Of a DNA stretch of 64,000 bases, positions 45,116-60,375 are shown one piece after another. The notes under the pieces were generated by a model. The model made no database searches. It saw only the letters and a program-made list of their open reading frames with translations, and had not been told where the DNA came from. The stretch is from Algoriella sp. (lineage in GTDB: Bacteria; Bacteroidota; Bacteroidia; Flavobacteriales; Weeksellaceae): the NCBI RefSeq assembly GCF_036647415.1, contig NZ_JAVXKG010000016.1:19-64018 (forward strand), given 5' to 3'. The translations under genes were made by a program, and so were the position numbers. Within the stretch, counting starts at the first letter, position 1. Each line of letters starts with the position of its first letter.

Positions 45116-45158
45116 AACCAAAAAGATGTTTATCTATTCGAAAAACATCTTTTTGGTT
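45116..45158. terminator. Terminator of efflux operon copy 2
   Basis: AACCAAAAAGATGTTT...AAACATCTTTTTGGTT. Confidence 0.8.
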
Positions 45159-45166
45159 AATTATTT

Positions 45167-45371
45167 ACCCGTTGTGCATTTTGATAATTTTAGCAATTAA
45201 ACCGTCAATTCGAGTGAAATTCTGTAAGAATTTTGTATCGAGAATAAGGTTTTAGAAGATAAAATTCTATTCTCGATACAATTTTTATTCATTCTTGTAC
45301 TGAGTTTATCGAAGTGTCATTTCTAAAAATCACTCGAACTGACGAATTTTAATTCAAAATGCACAACGGGT
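45167..45371. mobile_element. 205-bp MITE, IS982-like, intact (copy C)
   Basis: Perfect 18-bp TIR ACCCGTTGTGCATTTTGA; perfect 9-bp TSD TAATTATTT (45158-45166 and 45372-45380). Confidence 0.92.
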
Positions 45372-45398
45372 TAATTATTTATACCTATTTAGGACTAT

Positions 45399-51983: not shown

Positions 51984-52514
51984 ATGTATATGAAGAAGTT
52001 TATAAAATGGTTTTTCGGAATAATTATAGCTTTAATCGTTCTGATATTGATTGTTGCAGCAATTTTACCAAAAGATTTTCATGCCGAAGGAACAACTACA
52101 ATTAACAAACCAAATAAAGTGGTTTTTGATTATGTTAAACATCTAAAAAATCAAGAAAACTATGGTGTTTGGTTTAGATTAGAAGACAATATCAAAAAAA
52201 ATTATCAAGGAACAGACGGAACTGTTGGTTTTATATACACTTGGAAAGGAGATAAAGTTGGTGAAGGAAAACAGGTAATTACCAAAATTGAAGAAGGTAA
52301 ACGTATTGATATGGATTTATTCTTTAATAATGATCCAAATGCGGCTAAATCTTATATCTCAACTGAAGAAATTTCAGCAAATAAAACAAAGGTAAATTGG
52401 GTAATTGACGGAAAAATGCCTTATCCTTTTAATATAATGAGTCTTTTTTATGATATGAATAAAGATTTTGAGCAAGGTACAGCGAATTTGAAAGAGGTTT
52501 TAGAAAAACAATAA
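51984..52514 (+). CDS. SRPBCC (polyketide cyclase-like) protein
   Basis: N-terminal TM, GTDGTVGFIYTW, VGEGKQ, DFEQGTANLK. Confidence 0.85.
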   Translation: MYMKKFIKWFFGIIIALIVLILIVAAILPKDFHAEGTTTINKPNKVVFDYVKHLKNQENYGVWFRLEDNIKKNYQGTDGTVGFIYTWKGDKVGEGKQVITKIEEGKRIDMDLFFNNDPNAAKSYISTEEISANKTKVNWVIDGKMPYPFNIMSLFYDMNKDFEQGTANLKEVLEKQ

Positions 52515-52529
52515 TTTCAGATTTAAGTT

Positions 52530-52573
52530 AAAAACAAATAGTCAGAAAAGTAATTTTCTGACTATTTGTTTTT
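52530..52573. terminator. Bidirectional terminator
   Basis: AAAAACAAATAGTCAGAAAA...TTTTCTGACTATTTGTTTTT. Confidence 0.88.
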
Positions 52574-52593: not shown

Positions 52594-53790
52594 TTAAAAA
52601 GTCGTATTGGTTAAAACTGCATACGAAAATGTTAACACAGACAGTATTGTACCTATCATAAAAATAGTATATGTAATGCTCAATAATCTGTATTTACGTT
52701 CTAATACCTTTCCCAAAAAGTATAAATCACGCGTTAAAGAATTGTATAAATAATCTCTATCTTTCATCAATTCTTGCATTGCTTCTTCATAAGACTCTAA
52801 TGACATTTGATAAAAATTACCAAAAAATAACAAGTTCACTTTTTTCTGTTTAACATCTTCTTCGTTAAAACTTTCGTAAGTTACATTAGGTTTTGTTGCT
52901 AAAATCGCGAAAACGATAGAAACAACACTAGAAAACAACATAACAATTGAAGGCAATAAAAGATATTCATTTTTAGGAGTTGCCAATTTCGGAATCAATG
53001 TAGAAAGAGCAATCGAAATTACAATCGCATTTACAGATAATAAAATATTGGCTTTACTATCTGCAATATCACTTAGTCTGGTATGATTATTTAATGTTAC
53101 ACGAAATAAAGTGTCAACGCCTCTGTCGGGCTGTTGCATTTTATCGTTTTTTTTCTTTTTTAACTCAAATTTATTTGGAACATCTCCTATTAATTCTATT
53201 TCTTTGATTTTATTTTGTGTGTAAATCAGATTATTTTCTTTCCCTTTTTGCCATAAATCTTTGGCAGAATCAGTATAAAAATGATGTACATTTAAAAAGA
53301 AATTTCTGTTCTCTAAATTCCATTCATAATCAGAAAATTCTTTCTCACAAACTTTTGCTATTTCATCTCTCAAAAGCTCCGAAATTTTAGGATATTCTTC
53401 CTGACCTAGATGATAATTATCGGCATCTTTTATAATAGATTCTTCAATATTTCTGGGCGTGTAATTAATCTTAGTAGACAAGATATACGCAACTACATTT
53501 GCTATAAAATCTTCTGAAAAATTAATAGATTTTAAATACTCACTTGCAATTTTTGCGCTCTCATCTTCATGTCCTTGTACTGTTTTTGTATAACCTGTAT
53601 CGTGAAACCAACCCGCAACTATTAACTGTTCTTGTGTTTCAACCAAAATTTGTTCGTTTGTACATAAAATTTTAATTGCTTCAACAACTTTCACAGTATG
53701 CATAAAATTATGATACGTAAAATCCAAAGAAAGATTATCTTTGAATAAATTAAAAACATAGTTTTCTATTTTTGATAAGGCCGGATTCAT
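52594..53790 (-). CDS. HD phosphohydrolase fused to Pycsar-type TM effector domain (DUF5706/PycTM)
   Basis: YHN..HT, WFHDTG, HE, DAD; C-terminal IADSKANILL-TM-TM-LLFFGNF...KYRLL-TM. Confidence 0.85.
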   Translation of the reverse strand: MNPALSKIENYVFNLFKDNLSLDFTYHNFMHTVKVVEAIKILCTNEQILVETQEQLIVAGWFHDTGYTKTVQGHEDESAKIASEYLKSINFSEDFIANVVAYILSTKINYTPRNIEESIIKDADNYHLGQEEYPKISELLRDEIAKVCEKEFSDYEWNLENRNFFLNVHHFYTDSAKDLWQKGKENNLIYTQNKIKEIELIGDVPNKFELKKKKNDKMQQPDRGVDTLFRVTLNNHTRLSDIADSKANILLSVNAIVISIALSTLIPKLATPKNEYLLLPSIVMLFSSVVSIVFAILATKPNVTYESFNEEDVKQKKVNLLFFGNFYQMSLESYEEAMQELMKDRDYLYNSLTRDLYFLGKVLERKYRLLSITYTIFMIGTILSVLTFSYAVLTNTTF

Positions 53791-53814
53791 TACGCGCTTT
53801 TAAAGCATAAATGT

Positions 53815-56800
53815 ATGAAATTATTACCAACACAAAACATTAAAAAACTGAATTATCCATTTTTGGCTTTAGTCGGTTCTTGTTTATATATGACATCTTG
53901 TGCGACACAGCATCCACAGTATGGGCAACATATAAAAAATGAGAAAGTACAAAACGTCGAAGGGAAAAAAATTCAATCAATCTACTTAATCGGTGATGCA
54001 GGAAATTTAGATAATCCAAAGAAAAAACAAACTTTAGAAAATTTAAAATCCGAATTGAGTAAAGCTGACTCTGCTTCATATTTATTTTTTTTAGGAGACA
54101 ATGTTTATGAAAATGGGATTCAACCAGATTCTACCAAATCAGACTATACGACTAGCCGAAATAAGCTACAATTACAAATCGATTTAGCGAAATCTTTTAA
54201 AGGAAAAACTTTATTTATTCCAGGAAATCACGATTGGCGAAATGGTTTAGAAGGATTAAAAGAGCAAGAAAAAATAGTTAAAAAACAACTTACAAATAAA
54301 AAATCTTTTCTACCAAAAGACGGCTGTCCTATAGATAAAATTAATGTAAATGATAGTATCGGAATTATTGCGGTAGATTCTGAATGGTATTTACAAGATT
54401 GGGATAAACATCCTGGACTTAATGAAAAATGTGATGTAAAAACACGCGAGGCATTTTTTGAGGAATTAGAATCTCAGTTAAATAAATACCAAAATAGAAC
54501 GACTATTTTGACGATGCATCATCCATTATATTCAAACGGAACTCATGGTGGTCAATTTGATCTGAAAAAGCAAATTTATCCTTTGGGCGATTATTCTAAA
54601 ATTCCGTTACCAATCATTGGATCATTTATTAATTTATTAAGAAGCACAACAGGGCTTAGTCCTCAGGATGTTAATAATTATAAATACCGAGAAATGGCTT
54701 CTCGTATTGCAACATTAATCGAAAATAGAAATAATGTAATTGTTGTTTCTGGACACGATCATAATTTACAATACATCCAAAATAATAATGTAAAGCAGAT
54801 TATTAGTGGTTCTGGCTCTAAAAGTGAATCAGCAAAAGCTGTCGGTAAAAATGATTTTTCTTACGGAGATAATGGTTTTGCTATTTTAGATTTATATGAT
54901 AATGGCGCATCTAAAGTTAACTTTTATGGTTTTACAGAAACTGGCATTGACTTATTACTTTCTAAACAAGTAACAGAAAAGAAAAAAGAGTATTTGGCAC
55001 AAGTTTACGATGATAAAAAAATGCCAAAGAAAAAAGAAACATCTGTTTATCCACAAGAAAATACACAAAAATCTGATCCGTATAAATTCTTTTTTGGACG
55101 ACATTATCGCAAAACTTACGGACAAACGATTAGTGCAAATACAGTTAATCTTAGCGAATTATACGGCGGCTTAACTCCTGTACGAAAAGGAGGTGGTCAC
55201 CAAACACAAAGTTTACGATTAACAGACAATAAAGGTCAGGAGTATAATATGCGTTCGGTGAAGAAAAGCGCAACTCAGTTTATACAACAAGTTGCTTTCA
55301 AAAATAAATATGTTGCAGATGAATTTGAAAACTCATTTACAGAAAAATTTTTGATGGATTTTTATACCACAACACATCCATATTATCCTCTAGCAGTTGC
55401 TGATATGATGAAACCGATTGGTATCATGCATTCTACTCCAAAATTATATTATGTACCAAAACAAGAAGCGTTAAAAGAATATAATGAGTATTTTGGCGAC
55501 GAATTGTACATGATAGAGGAACGCCCTATGTCTGCTTATCAAGAAGGTGTTTTCGGAACACCAAAAGATATTGTAAGTACAGATGACATGTTAACTGCCA
55601 TTCAAAAAAACAAAAATATTATTGTCGACAAACAAGCCTACATGCGTGCACGTTTGTTTGACATGTTGGTTGGAGATTGGGATAGACACCAAGACCAATG
55701 GCGTTGGGGAATTTATGAAGACAAAGGTCAAACGATTTATAAACCAATTCCACGAGATAGAGATCAGGCTTTTCCTAGATATGATGGTTTATTTTTCAAG
55801 GTTATTATGGGAATTCCACCTTTGCGTCACATGCAAGATTACAAAGATGATATAAAAAACATAAAATGGTTTAACAGAGAGCCTTATCCGTTAGATTTAG
55901 CTATTTTAGAATCATCTGATCTTGATGGATGGAAAAAAGAAGCTCGCTATATACAAGAACATTTGACGGATGAAGATATTAGAAAATCTTTCGAATTAAT
56001 TCCCGAAGAAGCTAAGCAAGATTATGATAAAGAAGTAATTCATAATATTATTGAGCGTCGTGAAAAATTAGAAAAATTCGCAGAAGAATATAATAAAACT
56101 CTTCGAAAACTAATCATTTTAAAAGGTACAAATGAAGATGATAAATTTATTGTAACGCGTTTACCTAAAGGAAAAACAAATATAAAAATCTATTCAGGAA
56201 AAGATAGTACATTAATATTTGATGAAGAGTTTACGAAAAAAGAAACGAAAGAAATTCGTGTCTATGGTTTAAATGGTAAAGATCAATTTATAGTTGATGG
56301 TAAACCAAATCATGCCATTCTAACACGACTTATTGGTGGTGTTGATGATGATATTTATGAAGTAAAACGATCTAGTCGAATAAAAGTTTATGATTATGCA
56401 AACGGTAGTGATGCTTCTGAATCTACTTTTTTAACATCAAAAAACTTTGTAAACGACTACGAAATAAACACTTACGATTACACACAACCAAAGTATAACT
56501 TTTTCACAATGTTGCCTAATATTGGTTACAACCCTGATGATGGTATAAAAATTGGTCTTTCACCAACGTATACTGTCAATGGTTTTGATCGTAAACCTTA
56601 TTCTCAGCGTCATAATTTGCAATTAAATTATTATTTTGCAACAAGTGGTTGGGAAGCGAAATACAAAGGTACCATTATGAAAGCGCTTGGTAAATGGAAC
56701 TTGGATCTGAATGCGGCTTACACCAGCCCTACTTTTAGTACAAACTTTTTTGGATTAGGAAACGAAACCATTAATAATGATGAACAAAAAGGAATGGATT

Positions 56801-57540
56801 ATAACCGTGTTCGATTAGAAAGTTATAGTATTGGTCCTTCTATTTTTAAGATATTAAACAACAATGGTCGTTTAGATTTTTCTGCGATTTACAGCTATGT
56901 TAAAATAGAAGAAAATAAAGATCGAATTGTAAGTGAACAAAATATCGGTATAAATAGAGATGTTTTTAAAGGTCAAAATTTTGGAGAAATTGGTGCTAAA
57001 TATGTTTTCAAGAATTACGATAATGCATCATTGCCAAAATTAGGAATGACATTTTTAGCAAATGCAAAATGGATTTCTAATTTATCAGAATTTCAACGCA
57101 ATCATTTCTATACCGAATTAAACCTTGGTTTTACTCATAAAATTTCAGCAAATGGTAGATTAACAGTAGCTTCTATGCTGAAAGGTAAAGCAGTTTGGGG
57201 AAATTTTATGGAATTTTATCAAATGGCAAATTTAGGTGGTGATCAAGATTTGAGAGGTTATCGTTTAGGAAGATTTGTAGGTGATAAAGTCTTTTTACAA
57301 ACATCTGATTTACGTTTTGACGCCTTAAGATTTACAGCAGTTGTACCAATGCGTTTAGGCGTTTTTGTTGGTGCAGATTATGGTAGAGTATGGCTAGATG
57401 GTGAAGACTCAAACAAATGGCATTCATCTATGGGTGGTGGAATTTGGATAAACGGAGTTCAATCTGTGACAGCTACATTATCATATTTCAAAGGAGAAGA
57501 TCCTGGCAGAATAGTAATTGGAATTAACTTCGGTTTCTAA
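53815..57540 (+). CDS. Lipoprotein: metallophosphoesterase plus kinase-like domain plus Omp85 barrel
   Basis: MTSC lipobox; GDAG, GDNVY, GNHD, HHP, GHDH; GGGHQT, DWDRH, RDRD; LRGY; terminal Phe. Confidence 0.85.
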   Translation: MKLLPTQNIKKLNYPFLALVGSCLYMTSCATQHPQYGQHIKNEKVQNVEGKKIQSIYLIGDAGNLDNPKKKQTLENLKSELSKADSASYLFFLGDNVYENGIQPDSTKSDYTTSRNKLQLQIDLAKSFKGKTLFIPGNHDWRNGLEGLKEQEKIVKKQLTNKKSFLPKDGCPIDKINVNDSIGIIAVDSEWYLQDWDKHPGLNEKCDVKTREAFFEELESQLNKYQNRTTILTMHHPLYSNGTHGGQFDLKKQIYPLGDYSKIPLPIIGSFINLLRSTTGLSPQDVNNYKYREMASRIATLIENRNNVIVVSGHDHNLQYIQNNNVKQIISGSGSKSESAKAVGKNDFSYGDNGFAILDLYDNGASKVNFYGFTETGIDLLLSKQVTEKKKEYLAQVYDDKKMPKKKETSVYPQENTQKSDPYKFFFGRHYRKTYGQTISANTVNLSELYGGLTPVRKGGGHQTQSLRLTDNKGQEYNMRSVKKSATQFIQQVAFKNKYVADEFENSFTEKFLMDFYTTTHPYYPLAVADMMKPIGIMHSTPKLYYVPKQEALKEYNEYFGDELYMIEERPMSAYQEGVFGTPKDIVSTDDMLTAIQKNKNIIVDKQAYMRARLFDMLVGDWDRHQDQWRWGIYEDKGQTIYKPIPRDRDQAFPRYDGLFFKVIMGIPPLRHMQDYKDDIKNIKWFNREPYPLDLAILESSDLDGWKKEARYIQEHLTDEDIRKSFELIPEEAKQDYDKEVIHNIIERREKLEKFAEEYNKTLRKLIILKGTNEDDKFIVTRLPKGKTNIKIYSGKDSTLIFDEEFTKKETKEIRVYGLNGKDQFIVDGKPNHAILTRLIGGVDDDIYEVKRSSRIKVYDYANGSDASESTFLTSKNFVNDYEINTYDYTQPKYNFFTMLPNIGYNPDDGIKIGLSPTYTVNGFDRKPYSQRHNLQLNYYFATSGWEAKYKGTIMKALGKWNLDLNAAYTSPTFSTNFFGLGNETINNDEQKGMDYNRVRLESYSIGPSIFKILNNNGRLDFSAIYSYVKIEENKDRIVSEQNIGINRDVFKGQNFGEIGAKYVFKNYDNASLPKLGMTFLANAKWISNLSEFQRNHFYTELNLGFTHKISANGRLTVASMLKGKAVWGNFMEFYQMANLGGDQDLRGYRLGRFVGDKVFLQTSDLRFDALRFTAVVPMRLGVFVGADYGRVWLDGEDSNKWHSSMGGGIWINGVQSVTATLSYFKGEDPGRIVIGINFGF

Positions 57541-57547
57541 TAAATAC

Positions 57548-57582
57548 AAAAAAAATAACCTTCAATAGAAGGTTATTTTTTT
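57548..57582. terminator. Bidirectional terminator
   Basis: AAAAAATAACCTTC...GAAGGTTATTTTTT, overlapping the SRPBCC stop. Confidence 0.85.
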
Positions 57583-57983
57583 TGCACATATCTCTTAATA
57601 TCTTGCATCATATTAATCCATTTTATTTCTGAATGTGATCGTTCGTATTCATCTGCAAAATCTTTCGATTCTATTGATAAATAAGTATAATTACCAGAAG
57701 GTTTCAAACTAAAAATCACTTCAATTTCGTGGTTTGAGTTTTGCTTTTTATAATTGTAACGCAAACGTTCGTCTTCTAAAATTGACGTGATAAAAGCTTC
57801 ATCAATAATGGTTTCTCCATTTAGTTGAGATTCAAATTTTATCTTCTCTCCTACTTTCCAGTCATTACAAGTCATTTTTGTATTCTCAAAACACGCAGCA
57901 AATTCTTGCTCATCTACCAAAACTTTCCAAATATCTTGTGGTGTAGCTTCTATCGAGATATTTAATAAAACTATATCGCTCAT
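57573..57983 (-). CDS. SRPBCC/AHSA1-like protein
   Basis: IEATPQDIWKVL, DWKVGEKIKF, W..M...IKRYV. Confidence 0.75.
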   Translation of the reverse strand: MSDIVLLNISIEATPQDIWKVLVDEQEFAACFENTKMTCNDWKVGEKIKFESQLNGETIIDEAFITSILEDERLRYNYKKQNSNHEIEVIFSLKPSGNYTYLSIESKDFADEYERSHSEIKWINMMQDIKRYVQKK

Positions 57984-57986
57984 TTT

Positions 57987-60305
57987 CTAATCTTTTAATT
58001 CAATATATTTTGTTACTTCTTTTCTATAATTTATCGAAGCTCTAATTGCTAATAAACCATTTATTCCCTGCAAATCATTCACTTCTAAATATTCGATATC
58101 ATCTTTCAAATAATTTTCAGCAATCAATAATTTAAAATATTCTGCGTATTCTTCACGTAAAACATCTTCCGTATAAATTACACAAATTTTACCTGGTTGA
58201 TTTATTCTTTCTGTTGAATCTTTTATAAATGCTTTACTTATTCTTTTCTTAATTATTTCGTATTTAGCATTATTGTAACCATTTACATCAAATCGTTTTT
58301 CATCTAATTTAAAAATAATATCCAACGTGTTATTTGTTGCTAAAATTAATGAAGCTACATCTATTTCTATCGGAACTTTTTCACGAATATTATTATAAGC
58401 TTGCTCTAACGCTAGGTTTGCTTGCAATTGCCAAAATCTTATTTTCTTAACATCTTGATAACTAAATTTTTTCTGAGGCGCAATACTTCTTCCAACATAT
58501 AAATTATAATCAATTCCATCTGTTTTGAAACGCTCATAATAATGTGGAAAAATATTTTGAGCATCTAGTTGAAAAATATCTAACTTATTTGATAATAAAG
58601 AATTGATCATCGAAATTGATTGATCAAATTTTTTGCGTTCGATGTAAAATAAACCCGTCGTAGAATCTAATTTTTCTAGATATTCTGTAATAATAGATTT
58701 TTCATCTTCTTTTACATATTTTGGAATTTCGGGATGAATATTTATCGCGATATAATCAAATAATTCGCTCTCAAAATAAATTTTATCAACATTATGTATT
58801 CGTTCCGAAAAATCTTTTAATTGGTCAATATATTCTAAAAACTTATCTTTTTGTGTACGTCTAAAAAGTTCTTCGCATATTTGTATCAAATAATCAAGTT
58901 GATTTTTATAATCAATACGCATACAATTATTCCGAATGAAAGATGAATTTCTAACATCTATTTCGCCATATATTGGATACACATTCTGAAAAGAAACCTG
59001 AGATTTAGGCTTACTATTTGTGATATGCACCAAATGTTCGCGCGCTTTTTCTCTAAATTTCCAATCTACACTTGGATGCAATGACGTATATTCAGTCTGA
59101 ATGTAAGCATTAATCTGATTCTCAAATTCGACAGAATAACGGTAAATAGATTCTTCTAAAAGTGGAGTAAATTCTCGTAATAAATTCGCATTAACACGAT
59201 TAAAAACACCCGATTTTTTAGATGCAATTTCTAAAATTCCTAAACAATCATCTCCATTTTTAAGTGGATAAAGTATCAAACTTTTGTAACCTTTTTCTGA
59301 AACAATTTTCAATAATTTATCTTCTGGTTGCTTCTCTAACATAGAATCTACATTAGAAATTACATAATAATCTGATTTACTGATTTTATTTTCGAGATGA
59401 ACACATGCTACTTCATCCATTTGAAAATCATTTTTACTATTTAGCAATAAACTCGTAGTCATGTGCTGCAACGGGCTATTTTCTAATAAACTGGTTTCTG
59501 AATTATAAATAGAAAAACCAAGCTCCAAATCGCCAAGTTTGAAAATAGATTTTAATGCTGAAGTTATATCAAGCTTTACCAAATCAAATGGTTCGCCATA
59601 AGTCAATAATTTACTTTTCAATTTTGATAAAGCAATTTCGGTCGTATTATCAAAAAACGAAACTAAATTAAATCCTTTTGCAATCCATGATTGTAGCGGA
59701 ATATATTTCATCCAAAGAGCTGTGTCTTCGTATTTGTTTAGTAATTCTTCTATCTGATCTTCAGATAATTCATACTTTTCATCTGTCGGAAAAATTGAAA
59801 AATAATCATGATTAATGTCTGTTCCTAGATAGATTTTATATCCCTCATCATTAATTATTTCTAATTGATTTGACATTGCGAGATATAAATTTTTATTGTA
59901 ATATTTTGACAAAATAAAACAACAACAAATCTTGTAAATGTTATCATAATCAAGATCCGAATACGTTAGTTTTAGTTTCGAATGTTTGTTATGTAATAAT
60001 TCTTTTAAACGATCTGTCGCAAATATAAATTTATCTGTAAAAGGAAAAGTTATTGCCTTTAAATTATTCTTTATCAAAGGTTTTGGAATAATTTTATCGA
60101 TAATTGGCTCTACATCTTTTACTAATTTTTCAAATTCTTCAAAAGTTTCTACACCATTTATTAGTTCTGGCTTTGTTTCTTTCAAATAATCTAAAAACAC
60201 TTTAAATTCTCCAAAATTATATTCAGAATTTTCTAATTCTTCAATCAAAGAACTGAAAGAATAGACTATTTTTAAGGGTAGTTTATCTATAAAATTAGCA
60301 GTCAT
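57987..60305 (-). CDS. GAF-domain protein with putative divergent class III nucleotidyl cyclase domain
   Basis: GAF core SLILYPLKNGDDCLGILEIAS; LHPSV, FQNVYPIYGEIDVRNSS, RFKTDGI, FDVNG, QPGKICV. Confidence 0.75.
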   Translation of the reverse strand: MTANFIDKLPLKIVYSFSSLIEELENSEYNFGEFKVFLDYLKETKPELINGVETFEEFEKLVKDVEPIIDKIIPKPLIKNNLKAITFPFTDKFIFATDRLKELLHNKHSKLKLTYSDLDYDNIYKICCCFILSKYYNKNLYLAMSNQLEIINDEGYKIYLGTDINHDYFSIFPTDEKYELSEDQIEELLNKYEDTALWMKYIPLQSWIAKGFNLVSFFDNTTEIALSKLKSKLLTYGEPFDLVKLDITSALKSIFKLGDLELGFSIYNSETSLLENSPLQHMTTSLLLNSKNDFQMDEVACVHLENKISKSDYYVISNVDSMLEKQPEDKLLKIVSEKGYKSLILYPLKNGDDCLGILEIASKKSGVFNRVNANLLREFTPLLEESIYRYSVEFENQINAYIQTEYTSLHPSVDWKFREKAREHLVHITNSKPKSQVSFQNVYPIYGEIDVRNSSFIRNNCMRIDYKNQLDYLIQICEELFRRTQKDKFLEYIDQLKDFSERIHNVDKIYFESELFDYIAINIHPEIPKYVKEDEKSIITEYLEKLDSTTGLFYIERKKFDQSISMINSLLSNKLDIFQLDAQNIFPHYYERFKTDGIDYNLYVGRSIAPQKKFSYQDVKKIRFWQLQANLALEQAYNNIREKVPIEIDVASLILATNNTLDIIFKLDEKRFDVNGYNNAKYEIIKKRISKAFIKDSTERINQPGKICVIYTEDVLREEYAEYFKLLIAENYLKDDIEYLEVNDLQGINGLLAIRASINYRKEVTKYIELKD

Positions 60306-60335
60306 ATTTTAAGGTATAAATGACGAAAAGACTAC

Positions 60336-60343
60336 CAAAAATA
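60336..60343 (-). promoter_or_regulatory. -7 box upstream of the GAF gene, inside a probable yaaA terminator hairpin
   Basis: TATTTTTG within minus-strand GGCTACTA-TTTT-TGGTAGTC-TTTT. Confidence 0.45.
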
Positions 60344-60375
60344 GTAGCCTCTGTAAATTTATGAATTTTAATAAA

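What the first reader, a model, noticed from the sequence alone, without database searches (positions are those of the whole stretch)
52594..60305. Candidate undescribed cyclic-nucleotide system: GAF-cyclase, HD-PycTM effector and phosphatase/kinase-Omp85
Seen: three large genes are clustered between terminators. They encode a putative class III cyclase with a GAF domain, an HD hydrolase fused to a PycTM-like membrane domain, and an outer-membrane lipoprotein with phosphatase and kinase-like domains. Established: Pycsar is a class III pyrimidine cyclase plus a PycTM effector, and HD domains can degrade nucleotide signals. Inference: the locus combines signal synthesis, signal removal, a membrane effector and an envelope enzyme. 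It sits among housekeeping genes with no defence-island markers, so it could be a domesticated Pycsar-related envelope or stress circuit, or an unrecognised defence variant.
Basis: partly seen in the sequence, partly recalled or inferred. Interest (0 to 1): 0.9.

Follow-up and report, generated by a model that had tools for sequence, protein, structure and literature searches.

The report
Core-genome cyclase–HD–PycTM–outer-membrane module
Three neighbouring genes of a Flavobacteriales bacterium (a sensor protein with a hidden nucleotide-cyclase-like fold, a membrane protein joining an HD hydrolase to a domain known from phage-defence effectors, and a large outer-membrane phosphatase/kinase-like protein) stay linked across the order, which points to an undescribed, probably housekeeping, cyclic-nucleotide circuit of the cell envelope.

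Summary
At 52594-60305 lie an HD + PycTM membrane protein (398 aa), a lipoprotein with a purple-acid-phosphatase-like domain, a kinase-like middle part and an Omp85/TpsB-type barrel (1241 aa), and a 772-aa GAF protein. They form three transcription units separated by hairpin terminators.

No sequence method finds a cyclase in the GAF protein: Pfam and hhalign against real PF00211 proteins are negative. A confident AlphaFold model of its C-terminal 378 residues, however, matches almost only class III adenylyl/guanylyl cyclases in the PDB.

The genes belong together:
- All three are present in 50 of 151 sampled Weeksellaceae genomes and are usually adjacent. The order GAF/HD-PycTM/Omp85 holds in 51 of 80 loci, while the flanks are not conserved.
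- In Flavobacterium and Kaistella the GAF-cyclase-like protein is fused to the HD domain and heads one operon with PycTM, the Omp85 protein and often polyphosphate kinase.
- The same HD subfamily directly follows bona fide PF00211 domains elsewhere.

The distribution is vertical and nearly universal in Flavobacteriaceae, so a mobile defence system is unlikely. Activity, product and output are unproven.

Earlier agents of this scan reached the same reading on other genomes. I found no paper describing it.

The parts
52530..52573 (.). Perfect 20-bp-stem hairpin between the upstream SRPBCC gene and the 3' end of the HD-PycTM gene; terminator-like in both directions
52594..53790 (-). HD-PycTM protein, 398 aa: cytoplasmic HD phosphohydrolase fused to a three-TM PycTM (pJV1-SpdB3-type) domain
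53410..53706 (-). HD domain (residues 29-127). H27/H31, H63-D64, H74-E75 and D122/D124 are invariant in 26 orthologues
   Evidence: faint PDEase_I hit E 0.04
52615..53103 (-). PycTM domain (residues about 230-392), with TM segments at 249-267, 278-296 and 369-393
53791..53814 (.). 24-bp gap between the divergent start codons of HD-PycTM and the Omp85 gene. The median gap is 26 bp in 54 related loci
53815..57540 (+). Outer-membrane lipoprotein, 1241 aa: signal peptide/lipobox, metallophosphatase, kinase-like middle domain, Omp85/TpsB-type barrel
53980..54993 (+). Calcineurin-like / purple-acid-phosphatase-like metallophosphatase (residues about 56-393)
55078..56100 (+). Kinase-fold-like middle domain: GGGHQ loop, invariant GDWDRHxDQW (residues 620-629) and PRDRDQAF
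   Evidence: CtkA, E 0.011; PDC-M03A, E 1e-5; weak
56452..57537 (+). C-terminal beta-barrel region of Omp85/TpsB type (boundaries approximate)
   Evidence: Omp85_fam 1030-1241, below cut-off; ShlB in an orthologue
57545..57584 (.). Hairpin AATAACCTTC-AATA-GAAGGTTATT flanked by A and T runs, between the convergent Omp85 and AHSA1 genes; it overlaps the AHSA1 stop codon
57573..57983 (-). AHSA1/SRPBCC protein, 136 aa, 3 bp downstream of the GAF gene. Not found next to the module in any of 80 related loci, so probably a lineage-specific passenger
57987..60305 (-). GAF protein, 772 aa, soluble: N-terminal sensor-like region, GAF, helical linker, cyclase-fold domain
59121..59573 (-). GAF domain (residues about 245-395)
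57990..59120 (-). Class III cyclase-fold domain (residues 396-772). Invariant D450, S454/S455, K594-T595-D596-G597, D673, G676, N679, K686-K687-R688
58551..58847 (-). Helical insertion of about 100 residues (about 487-585) between the first strand/helix and the beta2-beta3 hairpin of the cyclase fold
   Evidence: secondary structure of the model
60328..60350 (-). Imperfect hairpin followed by TTTTCGTC between yaaA and the GAF gene start; terminator-like

Best explanation
The locus is one form of a conserved chromosomal Bacteroidota module that most likely signals with a cyclic nucleotide.

Proposed mechanism:
1. The 772-aa cytoplasmic protein senses a ligand through its N-terminal and GAF domains. 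Through a helical linker this controls a very divergent class III cyclase-fold domain that makes a cyclic mononucleotide. cAMP is a guess, based on a Lys/Asp pair at the expected places.
2. The inner-membrane partner reads and ends the signal. Its HD domain is proposed to be the phosphodiesterase. Its three-TM PycTM domain is proposed to be the nucleotide-controlled membrane output.
3. This pair is coupled to an outer-membrane lipoprotein that carries a purple-acid-phosphatase-like domain, a kinase-fold-like domain and an Omp85/TpsB barrel. In other lineages it is also coupled to a beta-propeller lipoprotein and polyphosphate kinase 1. The controlled process is therefore probably an envelope or phosphate/polyphosphate function, not abortive infection.

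Shown: the domain composition, the predicted fold, the gene linkage, the fusions and the phyletic pattern.
Inferred: cyclase activity, the product, the HD substrate, the role of PycTM, and every link to the outer-membrane protein's chemistry.
For: Fold: the model of residues 395-772 has pLDDT 88.3 and pTM 0.84. Foldseek against the PDB returns 49 class III cyclases among the top 50: Cya2 2w01 (E 3.7e-4, TM 0.51 over the target), CyaC, sGC, tmAC, CyaB, Rv1900c and the Pycsar uridylate cyclase 8jsz. The full-length model's best hit is a phytochrome-cyclase chimera, 6fht (E 2.8e-9). Invariant acidic and basic residues sit at the end of strand 1, at the beta2-beta3 turn and at the start of helix 4.

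Architecture: the GAF-cyclase-fold-HD fusion (about 967 aa) is found in at least 80 protein clusters from Flavobacterium, Kaistella and MAGs. The same HD subfamily directly follows bona fide PF00211 domains in other Bacteroidota proteins, so the cryptic domain fills the slot of a true cyclase.

Operons: fusion > PycTM > Metallophos-Omp85 > (propeller lipoprotein) > PPK1, with gaps of 1-12 bp except 85 bp before PPK1 in L088; the propeller gene is present in L081 and L089, and PPK1 in L081 and L088. HD-PycTM > PPK1 > propeller > kinase-like-Omp85 in L033 and L038.

Linkage: GAF(+) HD-PycTM(-) Omp85(+) in 51 of 80 loci, with median gaps of 7 and 26 bp, while the flanks are not conserved. 50 of 151 Weeksellaceae genomes have all three. 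Every genome with the GAF protein also has the other two. All 64 GAF-protein-positive genomes of a 401-genome phylum sample have a PycTM protein, against 191 of 401 overall. 14 of about 33 non-Flavobacteriales genomes have them within 15 kb, including PycTM-only neighbours.

Housekeeping character: the GAF protein is in 27 of 28 sampled Flavobacteriaceae genomes and an HD-PycTM match in 28 of 28. Identity decays with taxonomic distance (72% in the genus, about 35% in the order, about 28% in the phylum). GC content is uniform. The neighbours are housekeeping genes. In the plasmid collection it occurs only on large non-mobilizable replicons.
Against: - No sequence-based method links the domain to class III cyclases. 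Pfam Guanylate_cyc gives no hit even at E 10. A profile search of PDB sequences gives none. hhalign against 36 real PF00211 proteins gives probability 0.15, also with the insertion removed. The motif resemblances are therefore not statistically supported, and the residue-level assignment (metal Asp, Lys/Asp specificity, Asn/Arg) is unverified.
- Foldseek E-values are modest (1e-4 to 1e-2) and TM is about 0.5.
- No PADLOC cyclase model matches.
- In this window the genes are three transcription units, and the GAF gene has been moved to the other side of the Omp85 gene.
- In Sphingobacteriales, Chitinophagales, Cytophagales and a Fusobacteriota plasmid the GAF protein often stands alone.
- HD-PycTM occurs widely without the GAF protein.
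- How a cytoplasmic nucleotide would reach an outer-membrane protein is unexplained.
- There are no expression or biochemical data.
Confidence: 0.55

Rival explanations
1. It is a phage-defence system: a Pycsar-like abortive-infection module in which infection triggers the cyclase and the cyclic nucleotide opens the PycTM pore, with HD as a safety switch.
For: The PycTM domain is strong. The class III cyclase fold includes a match to a Pycsar uridylate cyclase. Cyclase plus 3TM effector is the recurring defence architecture (PMC11224242; bioRxiv 10.64898/2026.08.12.744502). PGAP names orthologues 'Pycsar system effector family protein'.
Against: Nearly universal in Flavobacteriaceae (GAF protein in 27 of 28 sampled genomes, an HD-PycTM match in 28 of 28) and all-or-none by genus in Weeksellaceae. 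Identity decays in step with taxonomy. No PADLOC cyclase hit. No defence or mobile genes nearby and uniform GC. Constant partnership with an outer-membrane enzyme and often PPK1, which no defence system is known to need. Absent from mobilizable plasmids.
Confidence: 0.1
2. The cyclase-fold domain is not a mononucleotide cyclase. It is either a catalytically dead regulatory or dimerisation module, or a palm-type enzyme with other chemistry, for example another nucleotide product or a reaction tied to polyphosphate. The HD domain then acts on that product.
For: No sequence-level similarity to PF00211. The conserved Asp of the hairpin lies before the Gly (KTDG), not after it as in KTIGD. The Asn/Arg spacing differs from the canonical one. 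There is a helical insertion of about 100 residues. PPK1 recurs in the operon.
Against: Many polar residues at the expected active-site positions are invariant over the whole family, which argues for catalysis. Fold matches are to class III cyclases, not to GGDEF domains, and only one is to a polymerase. The HD partner subfamily is otherwise fused to true PF00211 cyclases.
Confidence: 0.25
3. The three genes are unrelated neighbours kept together only by common descent.
For: They lie on different strands, in separate transcription units with terminators between them. The GAF gene is unlinked in several orders.
Against: Flanking genes are not conserved while the trio is. The trio survived an inversion in this genus. 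It exists as a fusion and as a tight co-directional operon in other lineages. Presence and absence are strictly correlated.
Confidence: 0.05

Closest known systems
GAF-regulated class III adenylyl cyclases (e.g. cyanobacterial CyaB1/CyaB2; Pfam PF00211 catalytic domain; structures 2w01 Cya2, 1wc1 CyaC)
   Same: Sensor (GAF) - helical linker - catalytic domain order. The predicted fold of the last 378 residues matches these structures best. Acidic residues are conserved at the two expected metal positions.
   Different: Invisible to the PF00211 HMM and to hhalign. Carries a helical insertion of about 100 residues. Motif details are shifted. Has an extra N-terminal domain of about 240 residues. 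No activity is shown.
Pycsar / Pucsar (class III cyclase PycC or PucC plus the three-TM effector PycTM/PucTM; PMC11224242; bioRxiv 10.64898/2026.08.12.744502)
   Same: A cyclase-fold protein genomically coupled to a protein with a bona fide PycTM (PF18967) domain.
   Different: - The effector is fused to (or, in the operon form, preceded by) an HD hydrolase.
- The cyclase-like protein is large, sensor-bearing and not recognised by defence HMMs.
- The module is core-genome and vertically inherited.
- It always travels with an outer-membrane Metallophos/kinase-like/Omp85 protein.
Tandem 'make and break' second-messenger enzymes (sensor-PF00211-HD proteins of Bacteroidota found here, P0408-P0415; by analogy GGDEF-EAL and GGDEF-HD-GYP proteins, from my own knowledge)
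   Same: The fusion form GAF-cyclase-fold-HD has the same domain order, and its HD domain is of the same subfamily (32-36% identity) as in sensor-Guanylate_cyc-HD proteins.
   Different: In the window the HD domain is on the membrane protein, not on the cyclase-like protein. The canonical cyclase-HD proteins have no PycTM or Omp85 neighbour.
Omp85/TpsB proteins with enzymatic passenger domains (e.g. patatin-Omp85 PlpD, from my own knowledge; Omp85 subfamilies surveyed in PMC4104836)
   Same: N-terminal enzyme domains followed by an Omp85/TpsB-type barrel. It is a lipoprotein, like the Bacteroidota Omp85 lipoproteins described in PMC4104836.
   Different: The passenger is a purple-acid-phosphatase-like domain plus a kinase-fold-like domain with an invariant GDWDRHxDQW loop. 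In Mucilaginibacter-type loci the phosphatase part is missing.

Membership tests
Class III nucleotidyl cyclase (PF00211 Guanylate_cyc) | Match to the family HMM above the gathering score | tested here: not met
   No PF00211 hit even at E 10. No PF00211 anywhere in the genome, which is 99.97% complete.
Class III nucleotidyl cyclase (PF00211 Guanylate_cyc) | Profile-profile sequence similarity to bona fide members | tested here: not met
   hhalign of A2 against 36 PF00211 proteins gives probability 0.15, E 0.39. The result is the same with the insertion removed or with the C-terminal half only.
Class III nucleotidyl cyclase (PF00211 Guanylate_cyc) | Cyclase homology domain fold | tested here: met
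   AF2 model with pLDDT 88.3 and pTM 0.84. 49 of the top 50 Foldseek PDB matches are class III cyclases; best E 3.7e-4, target TM about 0.5.
Class III nucleotidyl cyclase (PF00211 Guanylate_cyc) | Two metal-binding Asp residues (end of strand 1; beta2-beta3 hairpin), plus substrate Lys/Asp and transition-state Asn/Arg | tested here: inconclusive
   Invariant D450, K594, D596, D673, N679 and R688 lie at the matching secondary-structure positions. No residue-level structural alignment was available, and the spacing differs from the canonical motifs.
Class III nucleotidyl cyclase (PF00211 Guanylate_cyc) | NTP to 3',5'-cNMP + PPi activity | not testable with these tools
   Needs enzyme assays.
GAF domain | HMM or fold match | tested here: met
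   Marginal in this protein (E 0.047). Orthologues pass the Pfam cut-off. The family profile hits GAF structures (E 3e-3). Foldseek match to GAF 6oza has TM 0.63.
PycTM (PF18967, pJV1-SpdB3-type 3TM) | HMM match above the gathering score, and three TM helices | tested here: met
   118.4 bits against a cut-off of 27.2. PADLOC PycTM E 2.9e-18. Three hydrophobic segments.
Pycsar defence system | Adjacent PycC-type cyclase recognised by defence models, in one operon with the effector | tested here: not met
   No PADLOC hit for the GAF protein. The genes are not in one operon in the window.
Pycsar defence system | Patchy, mobile distribution typical of defence islands | tested here: not met
   In Flavobacteriaceae the GAF protein is in 27 of 28 sampled genomes and an HD-PycTM match in 28 of 28. 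Genus-wise all-or-none in Weeksellaceae. Housekeeping neighbours.
Pycsar defence system | Protection against phage | not testable with these tools
   Needs phage challenge in a laboratory strain.
HD phosphohydrolase superfamily | H...HD...D metal motif and HMM match | tested here: met
   PF01966 at 35 bits against a cut-off of 22. H27/H31, H63-D64, H74 and D122/D124 are invariant in 26 orthologues.
Calcineurin-like metallophosphatase (purple acid phosphatase type) | HMM match; similarity to solved purple acid phosphatases | tested here: met
   PF00149 at 40 bits against a cut-off of 21.5. 2bq8 and 1war at E 1e-5.
Omp85/TpsB outer-membrane barrel | HMM match to the barrel | tested here: inconclusive
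   NCBIfam Omp85_fam at 65.8 bits, below the subfamily cut-off of 200. The orthologue in L081 passes Pfam ShlB (31.7 against 22.7). No structure model was made.
HipA/CtkA-type (PI3/4-kinase-like) kinase fold | Catalytic loop D-x-H-x-x-N, metal-binding Asp, nucleotide-binding Lys/Gly loop, kinase fold | tested here: inconclusive
   The profile's best PDB hit is CtkA, E 0.011, aligned on GDWDRHxDQW against GNFDRHNGNW. Weak PADLOC PDC-M03A hit. No Pfam hit.

The most novel reading that the evidence does not exclude
The module is a trans-envelope phosphate/polyphosphate machine under cyclic-nucleotide control. The hidden cyclase and the HD domain set a cNMP level that gates the three-TM PycTM protein in the inner membrane. 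PPK1-made polyphosphate, or phosphate derived from it, is handed to the outer-membrane protein. There the kinase-fold domain works outside the cytoplasm with a non-ATP phosphoryl donor, and the purple-acid-phosphatase-like domain reverses the step. On this reading PycTM would be an ancestral housekeeping gated channel that defence systems later borrowed.
Probability: 0.12. Interest if true: 0.9.

Novelty: new variant of a known kind. Interest (0 to 1): 0.72.

Why it matters
If the hidden domain is an active cyclase, three things follow.
- Most Flavobacteriaceae, and many other Bacteroidota that sequence searches score as lacking a class III cyclase (this genome has no PF00211 hit), do have one. 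That would reopen the question of cyclic-nucleotide signalling in this phylum.
- The PycTM domain, known only as a phage-defence effector, would have a core-genome physiological role next to its own hydrolase. That bears on how defence effectors arise and how their toxicity can be controlled.
- The constant partnership with an outer-membrane protein that carries phosphatase and kinase-like domains, and the recurring polyphosphate kinase, gives a testable entry to an unknown envelope process in a genetically tractable group (Flavobacterium johnsoniae).

Tried and rejected
- Pfam, NCBIfam and PADLOC on the GAF protein found no cyclase.
- A profile of the whole family against PDB sequences found GAF hits only.
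- hhalign against real class III cyclases, with and without the insertion, in local and global modes, found nothing. I therefore do not rely on the motif look-alikes.
- The profile search of 1.84 billion representatives gave 1351 family members, but only the best 150 are listed, and all are full-length relatives. It gave no bridge to canonical cyclases.
- The GGDEF reading was rejected. GGDEF proteins appear only in the full-length search, through their phytochrome parts, and not in the top 50 for the C-terminal domain.
- AHSA1 as a system member was rejected: it is absent from 80 related loci.
- Canonical cyclase-HD fusions were checked for PycTM neighbours; none were found.
- Literature searches for PycTM + HD, DUF5706, SpdB3 and Bacteroidota class III cyclases found no description of this module.

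Full report
**What is there.** The region holds four ORFs:
- 52594-53790(-), 398 aa.
- 53815-57540(+), 1241 aa.
- 57573-57983(-), 136 aa.
- 57987-60305(-), 772 aa.

The organism is a Weeksellaceae member close to Empedobacter: the nearest named relatives of the 772-aa protein are Empedobacter species at 70-73% identity. GC content is uniform across the region (0.26-0.34). The neighbours are ordinary genes: a TolC-like efflux protein, an AraC regulator, an FMN reductase, OsmC, a glyoxalase, SRPBCC, YaaA, a Sua5/YciO-type protein and a carbamoyltransferase.

Hairpins that look like terminators lie at 52530-52573, at 57554-57577 with flanking A and T runs, and at 60328-60350. In this genome the genes therefore form three units:
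- HD-PycTM.
- The Omp85 gene, divergent from HD-PycTM with only 24 bp between the start codons.
- The GAF gene with a small AHSA1 gene 3 bp behind it, convergent on the Omp85 gene.

**The membrane protein.**
- Residues 29-127 are an HD domain and residues 272-380 a PycTM domain (E 2.4e-34).
- PADLOC's PycTM and CBASS '2TM effector' models also match.
- There are three hydrophobic segments, at 249-267, 278-296 and 369-393.
- In 26 orthologues the HD metal residues and a set of PycTM residues (SDIADSKAN, LLFFGNF, K366-Y367) are invariant.
- A faint hit to class I cNMP phosphodiesterases (E 0.04) is only a hint.

**The outer-membrane protein.**
- It starts with a signal peptide and a lipobox-like Cys.
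- Next comes a calcineurin-like metallophosphatase whose nearest solved relatives are purple acid phosphatases.
- Next comes a region of about 600 residues with no Pfam match.
- It ends in a barrel that matches NCBIfam Omp85_fam below its cut-off. An orthologue matches Pfam ShlB above its cut-off.
- In the middle region, GGGHQ, GDWDRHxDQW and PRDRDQAF are invariant or nearly so.
- The family profile's best PDB hit is the HipA-like kinase CtkA, aligned on the catalytic loop, at E 0.011.
- 'Kinase-like' is therefore plausible but weakly supported.

**The GAF protein and the cyclase question.** Sequence methods see no cyclase:
- Pfam gives nothing but a marginal GAF hit.
- The genome has no PF00211 match at all.
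- PDB sequence searches find only GAF domains.

I modelled the whole protein from 36 relatives (pLDDT 85). Its best PDB matches were a phytochrome-adenylate/guanylate cyclase chimera, DosP, phytochrome-GGDEF proteins and soluble guanylate cyclase.

To separate the domains I modelled residues 395-772 alone, from 34 sequences taken from the window and from loci fetched here (pLDDT 88.3, pTM 0.84). Of the 50 best PDB matches, 49 are class III adenylyl/guanylyl cyclases and one is a DNA polymerase:
- Cya2 is the best, with E 3.7e-4 and TM 0.51 over the target.
- The others are CyaC, CyaB, Rv1900c, soluble and membrane cyclases of animals, and the Pycsar uridylate cyclase 8jsz.
- None is a GGDEF protein.

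The order of secondary-structure elements fits the cyclase homology domain, with about 100 extra helical residues inserted after the first strand and helix. Invariant residues fall where the catalytic ones are expected: D450 at the end of strand 1, followed by S454/S455; K594-T595-D596-G597 at the hairpin turn; and D673, G676 and N679 before helix 4.

I then tested the sequence link directly. I collected real PF00211 proteins, aligned 36 of them and ran hhalign. The probability was 0.15, and no better after cutting out the insertion or using the C-terminal half alone. The cyclase reading rests on the predicted fold and on architecture.

**Architecture and fusions.**
- One of the best family members, P0059, is 968 aa long. 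It carries an HD domain after the cyclase-fold domain, 42% identical to the HD part of the window's membrane protein.
- This fusion is common: at least 80 clusters of about 967 aa, named from Flavobacterium pectinovorum, several other Flavobacterium, Kaistella and MAGs.
- The next-best relatives of that HD domain (32-36% identity) sit directly after bona fide PF00211 domains. These proteins have the build propeller/Y_Y_Y or TPR, then Guanylate_cyc, then HD.
- The cryptic domain therefore occupies the same slot as a true cyclase, next to the same kind of HD domain.
- The canonical cyclase-HD proteins have no PycTM neighbour.

**Gene linkage, by sample.**
- *151 Weeksellaceae genomes.* The GAF protein is in 50, full-length HD-PycTM in 52 and the Omp85 protein in 55 plus two partial matches. 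All 50 genomes with the GAF protein have the other two, in 13 genera, usually side by side. One congener has lost both the GAF protein and HD-PycTM but kept Omp85. Another has a frameshifted HD-PycTM.
- *401 Bacteroidota genomes.* The GAF protein is in 64, including 27 of 28 Flavobacteriaceae. All 64 have a PycTM-domain protein, against 191 of 401 overall. In 14 of about 33 positive genomes outside Flavobacteriales the two lie within 15 kb, across at least five families. Two of these have a PycTM-only protein right next to the GAF gene. Kin are not independent, so I give these as counts, not as tests.
- *80 loci fetched around GAF-protein genes.* The arrangement GAF(+) HD-PycTM(-) Omp85(+) holds in 51. 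The median gap is 7 bp between the convergent 3' ends, which often overlap, and 26 bp between the divergent starts.
- *Flanks.* Only these three families recur. The next, a propeller lipoprotein of the SdiA-regulated/phytase-like type placed just after the Omp85 gene, is in 36 loci. Flanking genes are in 23 or fewer.
- *The window.* It shows the same trio after an inversion of the HD-PycTM/Omp85 pair and insertion of the AHSA1 gene. It has no propeller gene within its 64 kb.
- *Other orders.* In Sphingobacteriales, Chitinophagales and Cytophagales the GAF gene mostly stands alone, as it does on a Chondrinema chromid and on a Fusobacteriota plasmid.

**Operon forms.** Where the fusion exists, everything lies on one strand; gaps are 1-12 bp, except 85 bp before PPK1 in L088.
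- Metagenome loci L081-L083: fusion, PycTM (204 aa), Metallophos-Omp85, propeller lipoprotein, polyphosphate kinase 1.
- F. pectinovorum (L088): fusion, PycTM, Metallophos-Omp85, PPK1.
- Kaistella (L089): fusion, PycTM, Metallophos-Omp85, a 290-aa gene in the propeller's position (not compared).
- Two Sphingobacteriia-type loci (L033, L038): HD-PycTM, PPK1, a propeller protein and a kinase-like-Omp85 protein without the phosphatase part form one operon, next to a PAP2 phosphatase gene and the GAF gene.

These forms tie all parts together and add PPK1 as a recurrent partner.

**Defence or housekeeping.** Cyclase plus three-TM effector is the Pycsar and Pucsar pattern (PMC11224242; bioRxiv 10.64898/2026.08.12.744502). 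Here the distribution argues against a mobile defence island:
- It is nearly universal in one family and all-or-none by genus in another.
- Identity falls steadily with taxonomic distance.
- The context is housekeeping.
- No defence model matches the cyclase-like protein.
- In the plasmid collection it occurs only on large non-mobilizable replicons.

A defence role is not excluded, but I rate it at about 0.1.

**Most likely mechanism.**
1. A ligand-sensing cytoplasmic protein makes a cyclic mononucleotide.
2. The HD domain removes it.
3. The PycTM domain is the membrane output.
4. The pair controls, or is controlled with, an outer-membrane phosphatase/kinase-like protein, perhaps in phosphate or polyphosphate handling.

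Only the composition, the predicted fold, the linkage and the fusions are shown. Every biochemical step is inference. I put 0.55 on this reading. I put 0.25 on a cyclase-fold domain that is inactive or has other chemistry, 0.1 on defence, and 0.05 on unrelated neighbours.

**Novelty.** I found no paper that describes the family, the HD-PycTM fusion or the module. The 2026 survey of cNMP cyclases with three-TM effectors does not mention it in the sections I read. Earlier agents of this scan reached the same reading on two other genomes. Their mention of a fusion led me to check the long family members. What I add:
- The negative hhalign test.
- The slot equivalence with true PF00211-HD proteins.
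- The co-directional operons with PPK1.
- The family-wide presence and absence counts.

**Limits.**
- No model coordinates were available for residue-level superposition.
- The Omp85 protein and HD-PycTM were not modelled.

Noticed in passing
window 57573-57983 (-): An AHSA1/SRPBCC gene sits 3 bp after the GAF gene. A second SRPBCC (Polyketide_cyc2) gene lies at 51984-52514. Neither accompanies the module in 80 related loci.
   Followed up: partly
L033 4896-9103; L038 12480-19177; L081 6001-14907; L088 9001-18314: Polyphosphate kinase 1 lies inside the module's operon in at least four lineages. L088 adds a lipid A acyltransferase-type gene and a cNMP-binding-domain protein just downstream.
   Followed up: partly
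L002 17685-18545 and 35 other loci; L081 13201-14076: A lipoprotein of about 287 aa of the SdiA-regulated/phytase-like propeller type is a fourth recurrent member. It is convergent after the Omp85 gene, or in the operon. No match in the window's 64 kb.
   Followed up: partly
L044, L060, L073, L080 (Aequorivita/Ulvibacter-type loci): The Omp85 gene is duplicated in tandem. In L044, L060 and L073 the second copy lacks the DWDRHxDQ loop; in L080 it runs off the end of the locus and was not read.
   Followed up: no
genomes G105 and G088 (same genus as the window): One congener has lost both the GAF protein and HD-PycTM but keeps the Omp85 gene. Another has HD-PycTM split into two frames (1-287 and 283-395).
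   Followed up: no
genome G185, contig 1, 3519690-3521849: The GAF-protein match lies in an open frame of 1383 aa, which may be another fusion.
   Followed up: no
phylum sample, family f31: Many genomes of one Bacteroidota family encode a stand-alone PycTM protein of about 190-210 aa (42-46% identical) and no GAF protein. The PycTM domain is therefore widespread as a core gene beyond this module.
   Followed up: no
L084 (Haliovirga abyssi plasmid pHIC, 7551-9872): A GAF-protein homologue (32% identity) in Fusobacteriota lies next to IS3 and Rpn transposase genes. This suggests horizontal transfer out of Bacteroidota.
   Followed up: no
window 45158-45380 and two other sites: Another first-reader note reports IS982-like MITE copies in this window. 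Not examined here.
   Followed up: no
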